Notes under the pieces: generated by a model
Told to the model about the DNA's origin: nothing
The model's database searches: none
What the model saw: only the letters and a program-made list of their open reading frames with translations
Translations under genes and position numbers: made by a program
NCBI GenBank assembly: GCA_050633305.1
Contig: JBOEGF010000018.1
Coordinates: 96,001 to 160,000, forward strand
Reading direction: 5' to 3'
Length of the DNA stretch: 64,000 nucleotides
DNA from: Nannocystales bacterium
GTDB lineage: Bacteria; Myxococcota_A; Polyangia; Nannocystales; Nannocystaceae
In this document: positions 31,850 through 32,544 of the stretch, piece by piece
How positions within the stretch are numbered: the first letter of the stretch is position 1
How the letters are laid out: each line of letters starts with the position of its first letter

Positions 31850-31990
31850 TTCGCGTCCAACGAGGAAGCCCAACACGCAACTACGCGGGTTCGATCCCCG
31901 CACTCAAACCAAAAAAGCAGAGGTCATGCCCGGTGGACGGGCGTCCGGCAGGAAGCCGGATCGACAATGGCTTCATCACTCGGACGCGAA
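31850..31990 (+). ncRNA. Array unit 1: scaffold RNA with degenerate permuted tRNA (T arm, D-like arm, GGA loop)
   Basis: TTCGCGTCC/GGACGCGAA; CAACACGCAAC; GCGGG-TTCGATC-CCCGC; GCCC-GGTGGAC-GGGC; TCCGG-CAGGAAG-CCGGA. Confidence 0.75.
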
Positions 31991-31999
31991 ACCAACTTC

Positions 32000-32152
32000 T
32001 CACACGCCCAATCGCCAGAGCCTTACACGCAACTCAAACTGTTGGTTCGAATCCAGCCGGGGCCACTTCGGGCCCTGTAGCCAAATGGTAAAGGCACCGC
32101 CCTCTTAAGGCGGCGATACAATCGCCCACGGCTCCGCCACTCGGGCGTGTGA
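32000..32152 (+). ncRNA. Array unit 2: scaffold RNA with circularly permuted tRNA, anticodon CUU (Lys)
   Basis: T arm GTTGG-TTCGAAT-CCAGC; acceptor CGGGGCC/GGCCCTG closed by ACTTCG; D arm GCC-AAATGGTAAA-GGC; CCGCC-CTCTTAA-GGCGG. Confidence 0.85.
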
Positions 32153-32168
32153 ACCCTCTTCGCTGTGT

Positions 32169-32241
32169 GGAACAGCTGCGGGTTGTAGAGCGACCTCGCC
32201 TTCGCTCCAGCCCGCGGCTGGGCCAGCTTTCGTTGGCCCCC
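32169..32241 (+). repeat. 73-nt double-hairpin spacer, copy 1
   Basis: 5 differences from copy at 32559-32631. Confidence 0.9.
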
Positions 32242-32257
32242 GCAGCACCGACTTTGA

Positions 32258-32388
32258 CCACCCAACCGCACGAGCCCTACACGCAACTTTCCAGGTGTCG
32301 CCGGTTCGAATCCGGCCCTCCGCTTCGGCGGACGTAGCTCAGCTGGCAGAGCATTGGACTGAACCTTGCGGCTCGTTCACTCGGGTGG
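32258..32388 (+). ncRNA. Array unit 3: YrlA-like topology, tRNA-Phe-like module opened at the anticodon loop
   Basis: TCCAG-GTGTC-GCCGG-TTCGAAT-CCGGC-CCTCCGC-TTCG-GCGGACG-TA-GCTC-AGCTGGCA-GAGC-A-TTGGA-CTGAA inside scaffold CCACCC/GGGTGG. Confidence 0.85.
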
Positions 32389-32401
32389 ACTCAACCTTTT
32401 C

Positions 32402-32544
32402 TCCGTGCCCAATCACCGAAGCCCTACACGCAACGTTTCGCGGGTTCGAATCCCGCCGATCCCTCACGGGGGTTGTAGCCAAGTGGATAAGGCATCAGTT
32501 TTGGGAACTGACTCACTCTCGAGGCTTCGGGCCTCGGGCACGGG
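32402..32544 (+). ncRNA. Array unit 4: scaffold RNA with circularly permuted tRNA, anticodon UGG (Pro-type loop)
   Basis: GCGGG-TTCGAAT-CCCGC; CGATCCC/GGGGTTG; GCC-AAGTGGATAA-GGC; TCAGT-TTTGGGA-ACTGA; scaffold CCGTGCCC/GGGCACGG. Confidence 0.85.

What the first reader, a model, noticed from the sequence alone, without database searches (positions are those of the whole stretch)
31850..32544. Units 1, 2 and 4: permuted tRNAs opened at the variable loop with the anticodon arm intact
Seen: the order is T arm, 3' acceptor, short loop, 5' acceptor, D arm, complete anticodon arm (CUU in unit 2, UGG in unit 4, degenerate GGA in unit 1). The acceptor end is looped shut and has no CCA. Known: YrlA replaces the anticodon arm with the Ro-binding stem, so this topology differs. 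D arms (GCCAA..GG..AAGGC) do not match typical Lys or Pro tRNAs, suggesting chimeras. Inference: non-chargeable full-L mimics.
Basis: partly seen in the sequence, partly recalled or inferred. Interest (0 to 1): 0.82.

Follow-up and report, generated by a model that had tools for sequence, protein, structure and literature searches.

The report
Y RNAs carrying a whole tRNA
Two small RNA genes next to a distant relative of the Ro60 protein in a myxobacterium fold like complete tRNAs, anticodon arm included, grafted by their variable loop onto a protein-binding handle, a design not described for bacterial Y RNAs.

Summary
Window 31853-32768 (+) holds five tandem Y-RNA-like units directly upstream of a 581-aa gene. 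That gene is a very divergent Ro60-like protein: vWA domain, and a helical N-terminal part whose best structural matches are Ro60 structures, but no Pfam TROVE match.

The order is handle 5' strand, T arm, 7-bp acceptor stem sealed by a 5-6-nt loop, D arm, complete 5-bp/7-nt anticodon arm (CUU, UGG), handle 3' strand. The handle therefore leaves from the variable region, not from the anticodon stem as in YrlA. Unit 1 is degenerate and has no acceptor helix. Units 3 and 5 are ordinary YrlA-type.

The design is conserved. 64 such units occur in 47 of 81 sources searched across Myxococcota, with compensatory changes in every helix. After in-silico re-permutation ARAGORN of 64 as tRNAs.

The anticodon triplet itself drifts freely (32 different among 64). 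The units are not copies of the genome's cognate tRNAs, so "chimera" is not supported.

"Non-chargeable" is untested and doubtful: acceptor stems are 7 bp, +1 is G, and 27 of 99 related units encode N73-CCA.

Verdict: a real, new topological variant of a known kind. Its function is inferred only.

The parts
31853..31988 (+). Unit 1: degenerate type II unit. Handle strands 31853-31870 and 31969-31987; ACACGCA motif 31873; T arm 31885-31901; no acceptor helix (A-rich 31902-31928); D-like hairpin 31928-31942; hairpin with loop CAGGAAG 31944-31960.
   Evidence: z -3.94; 61.4 bits; 0 of 7 acceptor pairs.
32001..32151 (+). Unit 2: type II Y RNA. Handle P1 32001-32009/32143-32151; P2 32018-32022/32130-32134; UUACACGCAAC 32023-32033; T arm 32041-32057; acceptor 3' strand 32058-32064; loop ACUUCG 32065-32070; acceptor 5' strand 32071-32077; D arm 32080-32095; anticodon arm 32097-32113 (anticodon CUU 32104-32106); small hairpin 32114-32124.
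   Evidence: 145.6 bits; tRNA-Lys ctt after re-permutation.
32169..32241 (+). D2a: 73-nt stable double hairpin between units 2 and 3. The long hairpin has the pyrimidine-rich loop CCUCGCCU.
   Evidence: 93% repeat; z -6.5; found only in the five same-genus loci.
32258..32388 (+). Unit 3: type I, ordinary YrlA layout. Same handle; T arm, sealed acceptor, D arm; the chain leaves at the anticodon-stem position.
   Evidence: Rfam YrlA 39.3 bits, E 9.7e-07, below the gathering score of 69; 90.3 bits.
32403..32543 (+). Unit 4: type II Y RNA. P1 32403-32410/32536-32543; P2 32418-32423/32523-32528; CUACACGCAAC 32424-32434; T arm 32440-32456; acceptor 3' strand 32457-32463; loop UCACG 32464-32468; acceptor 5' strand 32469-32475; D arm 32478-32493; anticodon arm 32495-32511 (anticodon UGG 32502-32504).
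   Evidence: 128.8 bits; tRNA-Pro tgg after re-permutation.
32559..32631 (+). D2b: second copy of the double hairpin.
   Evidence: z -5.39.
32644..32768 (+). Unit 5: type I, YrlA layout, with a short acceptor hairpin.
   Evidence: Rfam YrlA 42.7 bits, E 1e-07; 70.6 bits.
32826..34571 (+). Ro60-like gene, 581 aa. Helical N-terminal part, then a vWA domain at residues 386-483 with invariant D391, S393, S395.
34577..35488 (+). Conserved partner gene, 303 aa, no known family. It starts 6 nt after the Ro60-like stop codon.
   Evidence: (72 of 80 loci).

Best explanation
The region is an array of Y-RNA-type genes serving the adjacent Ro60-like protein.

Each unit has two modules. The first is a constant handle: the 5' and 3' ends pair into two helices around a conserved internal loop (CCAAYCG opposite CACUCGG), followed by single-stranded YUACACGCA. 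By analogy with Y RNAs this is where the Ro60-like protein binds. The second module is a tRNA-shaped body.

In units 3 and 5 the body joins the handle through the anticodon stem, which is the known YrlA layout. In units 2 and 4 it joins through the variable region. The complete L is therefore displayed, with T/D elbow, 7-bp acceptor stem and canonical anticodon stem-loop.

The body most likely works as a tethered generic tRNA mimic. It would bring a tRNA-recognising factor (enzyme, nuclease or ribosome-associated protein) to the Ro60-like particle, or compete for it. What is selected is the shape of the anticodon loop, not the triplet.

Shown: anatomy, conservation, covariation, linkage to the gene. 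Inferred: binding of the handle by the protein, transcription as separate small RNAs, and the tethering or mimicry function.
For: Linkage:
- All 156 covariance-model matches in 81 sources (566,058 bases, both strands) lie on the gene's strand. By my reading of the table they all lie upstream of the gene's start.
- In the 11-Mb genome the five units are the top hits. The rest are weak hits, six on tandem tRNA genes and two partial ones elsewhere.

Structure:
- 96.7% of cells are paired, and 26 of 32 pairs have changes on both sides.
- tRNA tertiary signatures are kept. GG is in the D loop in 63 of 63 units. All 63 T loops read UUC(G/A)ANU. The Levitt pair covaries: A15:U48 in 27 and G15:C48 in 13 of 63.

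Spread: of 100 units with an intact T/acceptor/D core, 64 carry an anticodon arm of at least 4 bp with a 7-nt loop, in 47 of 81 sources.

Loop frame: Y32 in 63 of 64, U33 in 59 of 64, R37 in 57 of 64, while positions 34-36 are near-uniform with 32 triplets.

Re-permutation: ARAGORN of 64 type II units as tRNA, against 8 of 36 units without the arm.

Protein:
- Foldseek's top full-length matches are Ro60/TROVE structures, E about 1e-6.
- For the N-terminal domain alone, the three Ro60 representatives are ranks 1-3 of 48,161 chains (Z 8.9, 8.9, 8.5; next 6.2).

Same handle, other grafts: 19 related units carry the body in natural tRNA order inside the same handle.

Weak sign of RNA: contigs of two poly(A) metatranscriptome runs cover 32008-32186, 32259-32565 and 32409-32657.
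Against: - No experiment shows the RNAs, their ends or their binding to the protein.
- The RNA-library contigs are thin (word depth 2-4) and may be carried-over DNA. The two raw-read RNA runs gave 0 reads.
- The protein has no Pfam TROVE match. Ten distant relatives have none either, and a profile of the family reaches TROVE chains only at E 0.09-0.11.
- The structural matches have rmsd 12-15 A. Z below about 13 can be a generic helical-repeat likeness by the tool's own caution.
- Rfam's YrlA model stays under its gathering score for all units, and the YrlA motif GNCGAAN0-1G is in 0 of 5 units.
- No promoter-like or terminator-like site was found by the simple scan.
- The effector is unknown.
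Confidence: 0.7

Rival explanations
1. The sealed acceptor is only a precursor state. RNase P cuts at +1, the loop remnant is trimmed, and CCA is exposed or added. The result is a two-piece tRNA whose long variable arm is the handle. It could then be aminoacylated, or at least be treated as a mature tRNA. This adds to the best explanation rather than excluding it.
For: - The acceptor stem is 7 bp in both window units.
- G stands at +1 in 80 of 100 units.
- N73-CCA is encoded exactly at the expected offset in 27 of 99 units, against 0-4 at other offsets and 2.8% expected from composition.
- Precedent: M. smegmatis YrlA, with a 7-bp stem, is cut by RNase P in vitro and carries added CCA in vivo (PMC4201824, passages).
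- 10.1101/312249 raises further processing of YrlA as a possibility (passages).
Against: - The window's units 2 and 4 encode no CCA.
- No reads show ends.
- The anticodons include AUA, AGA, AUU, CUA and UCA, and change between sister species. That is hard to reconcile with a decoding role.
- No bacterial enzyme is known that would remove the handle.
Confidence: 0.3
2. The displayed anticodon loops are baits or competitive inhibitors for anticodon nucleases, from toxins of competitors, phages or the cell's own stress nuclease. The array is then a repertoire of decoys held on the Ro60-like particle, and cleavage could also act as a signal.
For: - The anticodon is among the fastest-changing parts of otherwise constrained units. 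It varies at 2/3, 3/3, 2/3, 1/3 and 3/3 positions in five orthologue groups, against 10-31% of the other columns. In six Corallococcus loci most variable columns lie in the anticodon loop and the linker after it.
- 13 of 13 arrays with at least two type II units carry different anticodons.
- Hughes et al. suggest that the YrlA tRNA-like domain may competitively inhibit an anticodon nuclease (PMC7790460, passages).
Against: - Neutral drift at three unconstrained bases explains the variation equally well, since the linkers vary as fast.
- With 32 triplets in use, different anticodons within an array are expected by chance.
- PADLOC models match neither the Ro60-like protein nor its two conserved neighbours.
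- No nuclease gene was recognised at the locus.
Confidence: 0.12
3. The anticodon arm is an evolutionary left-over without a function of its own. It would be a remnant of the tRNA or tRNA dimer from which these Y RNAs arose.
For: - The dimeric-tRNA origin model is in print (10.1101/312249, passages).
- The covariance model also hits six tandem tRNA gene pairs of the genome.
- A phage homologue of the protein lies at the end of an array of at least 26 tRNA genes.
Against: A dead remnant would not keep 5 of 5 covarying stem pairs and a 7-nt loop with Y32, U33 and R37 across several myxobacterial families. It would decay, as unit 1 has.
Confidence: 0.08
4. The units are not separate RNAs but a structured 5' leader, or tRNA pseudogenes, regulating or merely preceding the downstream gene.
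For: Same strand and close spacing to the gene. No promoter-like or terminator-like site by the simple scan.
Against: Each unit closes on itself with its own handle and is followed by a pyrimidine-rich tail. The number and order of units vary between species. RNA-library contigs break between units (weak).
Confidence: 0.05

Closest known systems
YrlA (Y RNA-like A; Rfam RF02553; Chen et al. 2014, PMC4201824; structure in Wang et al. 2018, 10.1101/312249)
   Same: - Encoded next to a Ro60-type gene on the same strand.
- The 5' and 3' ends pair into a handle.
- The order is T arm, sealed acceptor stem, D arm.
- tRNA tertiary nucleotides are kept, including a covarying 15:48 pair.
- A conserved YUAY follows the handle.
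- Several Y RNAs occur per locus.
- Units 3 and 5 of the window have this layout (Rfam E about 1e-7).
   Different: - Units 2 and 4 keep a complete anticodon stem-loop, so the handle leaves from the variable region. [quoted passage not shown]
- Scores are below Rfam's gathering score.
- The partner protein has no Pfam TROVE match.
M. smegmatis YrlA (Chen et al. 2014)
   Same: A 7-bp acceptor stem on a sealed loop, the feature that makes that RNA an RNase P substrate which then receives CCA.
   Different: That RNA has no anticodon arm. Processing of the units here is untested.
Circularly permuted tRNA genes of the red alga Cyanidioschyzon merolae. Known to me from the discussion in 10.1101/312249, which cites Soma et al. 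2007; that paper was not read.
   Same: The 3' half stands before the 5' half, and the acceptor is initially a closed loop.
   Different: Those are matured into decoding tRNAs through a circular intermediate by eukaryotic or archaeal splicing enzymes. Here the anticodon is not conserved, a protein-binding handle is kept, and no such enzymes are known in bacteria.
Anticodon-less permuted tRNA mimics of phages noted earlier in this scan
   Same: Permuted tRNA body with a sealed acceptor.
   Different: Those lack the anticodon loop, and mostly also the handle and a Ro60 gene. Here all three are present.

Membership tests
YrlA (Rfam RF02553) | Reaches Rfam's gathering score (69 bits) | tested here: not met
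   Units 5 and 3 score 42.7 and 39.3 bits over the full model. Units 4 and 2 give only partial matches of 23.6 and 20.2 bits (model positions 29-81). Unit 1 has no match.
YrlA (Rfam RF02553) | T arm, closed acceptor stem-loop and D arm in that order, with tRNA tertiary nucleotides | tested here: met
   for units 2-5. Unit 1 lacks the acceptor helix.
YrlA (Rfam RF02553) | The stem leading to the Ro60-binding module takes the place of the anticodon stem; no anticodon loop | tested here: not met
   Units 2 and 4 have a closed 5-bp/7-nt anticodon arm, and the chain leaves after it. Units 3 and 5 meet the feature.
YrlA (Rfam RF02553) | GNCGAAN0-1G motif near the 5' end | tested here: not met
   0 of 5 units by regular-expression search.
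YrlA (Rfam RF02553) | Within 4 kb of the Ro60 orthologue, same strand | tested here: met
   The array ends 58 nt before the gene. All 156 model hits in 81 sources lie on the gene's strand and upstream. Whether the gene is a Ro60 orthologue is addressed in the rows below.
Y RNA in general | Bound by Ro60/Rsr in the cell | not testable with these tools
   Needs immunoprecipitation.
Ro60 / Rsr (TROVE + vWA) | Pfam TROVE (PF05731) match | tested here: not met
   No match at E up to 10 for residues 1-385. None in 10 distant relatives. None in the whole genome, which is 92% complete, while the control genomes ring.
Ro60 / Rsr (TROVE + vWA) | C-terminal vWA domain with a MIDAS-type DxSxS | tested here: met
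   VWA_2 at residues 386-483, E 8.5e-08. D391, S393 and S395 are invariant in 22 sequences.
Ro60 / Rsr (TROVE + vWA) | Helical-repeat ring fold like solved Ro60 | tested here: inconclusive
   Full model: the top full-length Foldseek matches are Ro60/TROVE, E 1e-6 to 4e-5, TM 0.24-0.36. N-terminal model (pLDDT 87): the top six Foldseek rows are Ro60/TROVE, but at E 0.012-0.043. VIA wide gives 2nvo Z 8.9, 9l5y Z 8.9 and 1yvp Z 8.5 as ranks 1-3 of 48,161, next 6.2, with rmsd 12-15 A.
Genuine (decoding) tRNA gene, permuted or not | Detected as a tRNA in the genomic order | tested here: not met
   ARAGORN finds 0 tRNAs in the window, and 0 direct calls among the 100 type I/II units.
Genuine (decoding) tRNA gene, permuted or not | Scores as a tRNA after re-permutation | tested here: met
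   58 of 64 type II units. Unit 2 is called Lys(ctt) and unit 4 Pro(tgg). With the whole handle left in, only the intron-allowing mode calls unit 4.
Genuine (decoding) tRNA gene, permuted or not | Anticodon conserved among orthologues | tested here: not met
   Unit 2 orthologues read CUU, CUU, GUU, AUA, UCU, UCU. Unit 4 orthologues read UGG, UGA, CGG.

The most novel reading that the evidence does not exclude
Myxobacteria keep a Ro60-like particle that displays whole tRNAs on a common handle, grafted at any of three positions: anticodon stem, variable loop or acceptor stem. The variable-loop type would be opened by RNase P and given a CCA end. It would then be a two-piece, protein-tethered tRNA that is either charged or serves as bait for anticodon-specific nucleases. 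Its fast-changing anticodons would record an arms race, making the array an RNA decoy repertoire.
Probability: 0.12. Interest if true: 0.9.

Novelty: new variant of a known kind. Interest (0 to 1): 0.72.

Why it matters
What the tRNA-like module of bacterial Y RNAs is for has been open since 2014. The two key papers stress that YrlA has neither an anticodon loop nor a free CCA end.

A conserved subfamily that keeps the full anticodon arm narrows the options. This subfamily often encodes CCA, and it shares its handle with two other graft topologies. Together these say that the handle and the tRNA body are separable modules, and that the whole L shape, anticodon-loop geometry included, is under selection.

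It also offers cultivable organisms for direct tests, such as Corallococcus, Hyalangium, Archangium and Myxococcus.

Finally, it uncovers a Ro60-like protein family that domain annotation labels only 'VWA domain-containing protein'. Surveys based on TROVE annotation, such as the 2014 one, would not have picked up these loci.

Tried and rejected
- Chimera or recent tRNA copy: rejected. The cognate tRNAs are not the nearest.
- ARAGORN on units re-permuted with the whole handle kept: 0 of 5 without introns. With introns allowed, unit 4 (Pro tgg) and unit 3 (Val gac) are called. I replaced this by cutting the handle out.
- Sequence searches of the protein against the PDB: phmmer gave 0 hits. The family profile gave vWA hits and TROVE chains only at E 0.09-0.11.
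- NCBIfam and PADLOC gave nothing useful.
- VIA second look at the full model: filled by vWA domains, uninformative for the N-terminal part.
- Partner proteins 34577-35488 and 35470-36747: the Atlas, Pfam and (for the first) a PDB profile gave nothing.
- Complex prediction of the Ro60-like protein with the 303-aa partner never ran.
- Phylum-wide RNA search: 0 of 150 sampled genomes at E 1e-9, but only 20 candidates were scored per genome, so this is no evidence of absence.
- Type II units beside canonical TROVE genes: 25 loci gave 3 hits of 20 bits or less. One is an ordinary tRNA-like gene behind another T arm, one has no D arm, and one covers only a T arm and acceptor hairpin. The model includes this family's handle, so the test is weak.
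- Raw-read RNA runs X23 and X24: 0 reads laid, so no test.
- Promoter and terminator scan: 0 sites.
- Earlier notes of this scan: none at this place or for this protein.
- Literature: three full-text searches found no paper describing a Y RNA with an anticodon loop or a myxobacterial Ro60-like locus of this kind. The reviews by Sim and Wolin are not in the library and were not seen. File 6 of the 2014 supplements was not searched.
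Full report
WHAT IS THERE. Between an OmpA-family gene and a 581-aa gene, the + strand from 31853 to 32768 carries five units of 125-151 nt. Each begins and ends with complementary strands that close it into a handle. The handle has an outer helix, an internal loop with CCAAYCG on the 5' side and CACUCGG on the 3' side, an inner helix, and then single-stranded YUACACGCA. ACACGCA is present in 5 of 5 units. A pyrimidine-rich tail follows each unit. Two copies of a very stable 73-nt double hairpin (z -6.5 and -5.4) lie between units 2/3 and 4/5. 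The stretch 32001-32400 aligns with 32403-32780 as a diverged tandem duplication.

THE OBSERVATION. In units 2 and 4 the inside of the handle reads, in this order:
- T arm with GG-UUCGAAU-CC;
- a 7-nt acceptor 3' strand;
- a 6- or 5-nt loop without CCA;
- the 7-nt acceptor 5' strand, then U8-A9;
- a D arm with GG in its loop, then A26;
- a 5-bp stem with a 7-nt loop, C-U-CUU-A-A in unit 2 and U-U-UGG-G-A in unit 4.

MFE folding recovers all these helices. The drawn structure is a sub-structure of the MFE. Rfam's tRNA model matches from the acceptor 5' strand through the anticodon arm (33.3 and 28.2 bits). Rfam's YrlA model matches only the T-acceptor-D core of these two units (20-24 bits), but matches units 3 and 5 over its full length (39-43 bits, E about 1e-7, below the gathering score of 69). 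ARAGORN finds no tRNA in the window as it stands. Unit 1 has the handle, the T arm, a D-like hairpin and a hairpin with loop CAGGAAG, but no acceptor helix (0 of 7 pairs). It is a decayed copy. Its orthologue in a related species is intact.

IS IT MORE THAN CHANCE. The downstream protein has close orthologues in 8 of 39 related genomes searched, and all 8 carry arrays upstream. Fifteen anticodon-arm units from 9 loci align well. On the structure I drew, 96.7% of cells pair, against 76.1% in shuffles and 25-44% with slid partners. 26 of 32 pairs have changes on both sides, and the anticodon stem has 5 of 5 such pairs at 98.7% paired. Many of these rows are paralogues or close kin, so the counts are not independent events.

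A covariance model of these 15 was run over the window plus 80 loci found through the protein in named genomes. It gave 156 matches, all on the gene's strand and all before the gene's start.

I classified the 150 aligned matches by fixed rules:
- 100 have an intact core (T at least 4, acceptor at least 6, D at least 3 pairs).
- Of those, 64 have an anticodon arm of at least 4 bp with a 7-nt loop (type II).
- The other 36 do not (type I). A few of these, Myxococcus among them, have 6- or 8-nt loops.
- 19 are of a third kind, described below.
- 31 are unclassified, among them window units 1 and 5.

Type II units occur in 47 of 81 sources. By their record titles these span Nannocystaceae, Kofleriaceae, Haliangiales, Polyangiaceae, Archangiaceae and Myxococcaceae.

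THE RE-PERMUTATION TEST. I joined the acceptor 5' strand through the anticodon stem to the T arm and acceptor 3' strand, with five natural flanking bases as variable loop. ARAGORN then of 64 type II units as tRNAs, unit 2 as Lys(ctt) and unit 4 as Pro(tgg). It of 36 type I units. With the whole handle left in place it calls none without introns.

WHAT IS CONSERVED AND WHAT IS NOT. The loop frame is tRNA-like: Y32 in 63 of 64, U33 in 59 of 64, purine 37 in 57 of 64, A38 in 41 of 64. Positions 34-36 are near-uniform, with 32 triplets among 64 units, including CUA twice and UCA once. The base just 5' of the T stem covaries with D-loop position 15 (A:U 27, G:C 13 of 63), as the Levitt pair does. 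So the chain really enters the T stem from position 48, and the break lies in the variable region.

In five groups of orthologues the anticodon varies at 2/3, 3/3, 2/3, 1/3 and 3/3 positions, against 10-31% of the other columns. Fisher p is 0.01-0.28 per group, so this is modest. The linkers vary as fast. I therefore read this as lack of constraint on the triplet, not as proven positive selection.

Against the genome's own 68 tRNAs, the re-permuted units 2 and 4 are at best 54/69 and 54/70 identical, to Asn and Cys tRNAs. The cognate tRNAs rank 8-20.

THE ACCEPTOR END. Both window units have 7-bp stems. Among the 100 core units +1 is G in 80. CCA stands exactly one base after the acceptor 3' strand in 27 of 99, against 3, 0, 4 and 1 at neighbouring offsets and 2.8% expected from composition. 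The window's own loops (ACUUCG, UCACG) have no CCA.

THE PROTEIN. Pfam sees only VWA_2 at 386-483. There is no TROVE match in the N-terminal 385 residues even at E 10, none in ten distant relatives, and none anywhere in this 92%-complete genome. The family is highly conserved: the 80 kept loci are 64-96% identical to it, and sources name it 'VWA domain-containing protein'. 365 representatives are found among 1.84 billion.

An AlphaFold model of the whole protein (pLDDT 74.8) has Ro60/TROVE structures as its best full-length Foldseek matches: 9kop, 2i91, 9nfa, 9l5y, 1yvr, and 2nvo at rank 20, with E 1e-6 to 4e-5 and TM 0.24-0.36. The N-terminal domain was modelled alone (pLDDT 87.2). It again puts six Ro60/TROVE entries on top in Foldseek, though only at E 0.012-0.043. 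In a Foldseek-independent comparison with 48,161 chains the three Ro60 representatives are ranks 1-3: Z 8.9, 8.9 and 8.5, with 262-297 residues aligned and rmsd 12-15 A. The next match has Z 6.2. The tool warns that such Z values for helical repeats can be generic.

I call the protein Ro60-like. I do not call it a demonstrated TROVE member.

A 303-aa gene of no known family follows 6 nt after its stop codon in 72 of 80 loci. A convergent 425-aa gene is conserved in 62 of 80.

RELATED THINGS SEEN. In 19 units of related loci the same handle encloses a tRNA body in natural order: D arm, anticodon arm, variable loop, T arm. The acceptor stem is cut down to about 4 bp (my reading of the printed sequences). 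ARAGORN of 17 hand-picked ones directly. So one handle carries tRNA bodies grafted at the anticodon stem, the variable loop or the acceptor stem, often within one array. A 197-kb phage record has a 35%-identical homologue of the protein directly after an array of at least 26 genuine tRNA genes (38-72 bits) on the same strand.

EXPRESSION. Contigs of two poly(A) metatranscriptome runs cover 32008-32186 (1 difference), 32259-32565 and 32409-32657 (relatives, 8-16 differences), and the gene from 32730 on. Contigs cannot show ends, and DNA carry-over is not excluded. The two raw-read RNA runs laid no reads.

COMPARISON WITH WHAT IS KNOWN. The closest known family is YrlA (PMC4201824: sections 5 and 6, passages, and a supplement table search; 10.1101/312249: passages). 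These units share with it the linkage to a Ro60-type gene, the handle formed by the RNA's ends, the T-acceptor-D order and the tRNA tertiary core.

Units 2 and 4 differ in the defining point. In YrlA the stem towards the Ro60 module is the anticodon stem, and the RNA 'lacks the anticodon loop'. They also lack the GNCGAAN0-1G motif and stay below Rfam's threshold.

The 2014 survey started from proteins annotated as TROVE. It listed only Plesiocystis and Sorangium among six myxobacterial genus names that I looked up, with YrlA candidates beside canonical Ro60 genes. This protein family would not have been collected. Three full-text searches found no description of an anticodon-bearing Y RNA. The reviews of the field are not in the library. 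Earlier notes of this scan describe only anticodon-less permuted mimics in phages.

HOW IT MOST LIKELY WORKS.
- Shown: a modular RNA with a conserved handle and a complete, covarying tRNA-shaped body, always beside the Ro60-like gene.
- Inferred by analogy with Y RNAs: the protein binds the handle, and the body engages a tRNA-recognising factor, either tethering it to the particle or competing for it.
- The selected features are elbow, 7-bp acceptor, U-turn loop and purine 37, but no particular anticodon. This points to a factor that reads generic tRNA shape including the anticodon loop.
- Opening by RNase P and a CCA end are plausible for at least part of the family. The grounds are the 7-bp stems, G at +1, encoded CCA and the M. 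smegmatis precedent. For the window's units this is untested.
- A decoy role against anticodon nucleases extends a suggestion by Hughes et al. (PMC7790460). It is the boldest reading the data allow.

VERDICT. The topological claim is right. 'Chimera' is not supported, and 'non-chargeable' is open. This is a new variant of a known kind, conserved across Myxococcota, beside a previously unrecognised Ro60-like protein family.

Noticed in passing
L072:1567-1696, L046:2143-2272 and 17 further units in related loci: A third graft topology. The same handle encloses a tRNA body in natural order (D arm, anticodon arm, variable loop, T arm), with the acceptor stem reduced to about 4 bp. ARAGORN calls them tRNAs directly, with varied anticodons.
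   Followed up: partly
Acceptor loops of related units, e.g. L036:2101-2236, L041:2102-2237, L094:514-680: N73-CCA is encoded exactly after the acceptor 3' strand in 27 of 99 core units, offset-specific. Some loops carry an extra hairpin of 25-46 nt after the CCA.
   Followed up: partly
window 32169-32241 and 32559-32631: A 73-nt double hairpin repeat (93% identical copies, z -6.5 and -5.4) with a pyrimidine-rich loop. It was found only in the five same-genus loci. It recalls the long-hairpin second Y RNAs (YrlB, Yrn2) described by Chen et al. 2014, but this was not tested.
   Followed up: partly
window 34577-35488 (+) and 35470-36747 (-): Two genes of no known family are conserved next to the Ro60-like gene, in 72 and 62 of 80 loci. 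The first starts 6 nt after its stop codon and is a candidate particle component or effector.
   Followed up: partly
L137 (KX853510.1, 180815-189668): A 197-kb phage carries a 35%-identical full-length homologue of the Ro60-like protein directly downstream of an array of at least 26 genuine tRNA genes, same strand. The record annotates it as a misc_feature, not a CDS.
   Followed up: partly
L105 (G000:C14:278862-278937, - strand): A lone T arm plus sealed 7-bp acceptor hairpin elsewhere in the genome. It has weak likeness to the permuted tmRNA model (21 bits, gathering score 47).
   Followed up: partly
window 32328-32464: Rfam's tRNA model passes its gathering score (32.6 bits) on a false tRNA pieced together from the 5' half of unit 3 and the T arm of unit 4. 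Annotation pipelines could mis-call tRNA pseudogenes here.
   Followed up: yes
window 31650-31678: A GC-rich hairpin followed by a T run lies after the upstream OmpA-family gene, and similar hairpins stand upstream of the arrays in several related loci. It looks like that gene's terminator. The consensus scan did not list it.
   Followed up: no
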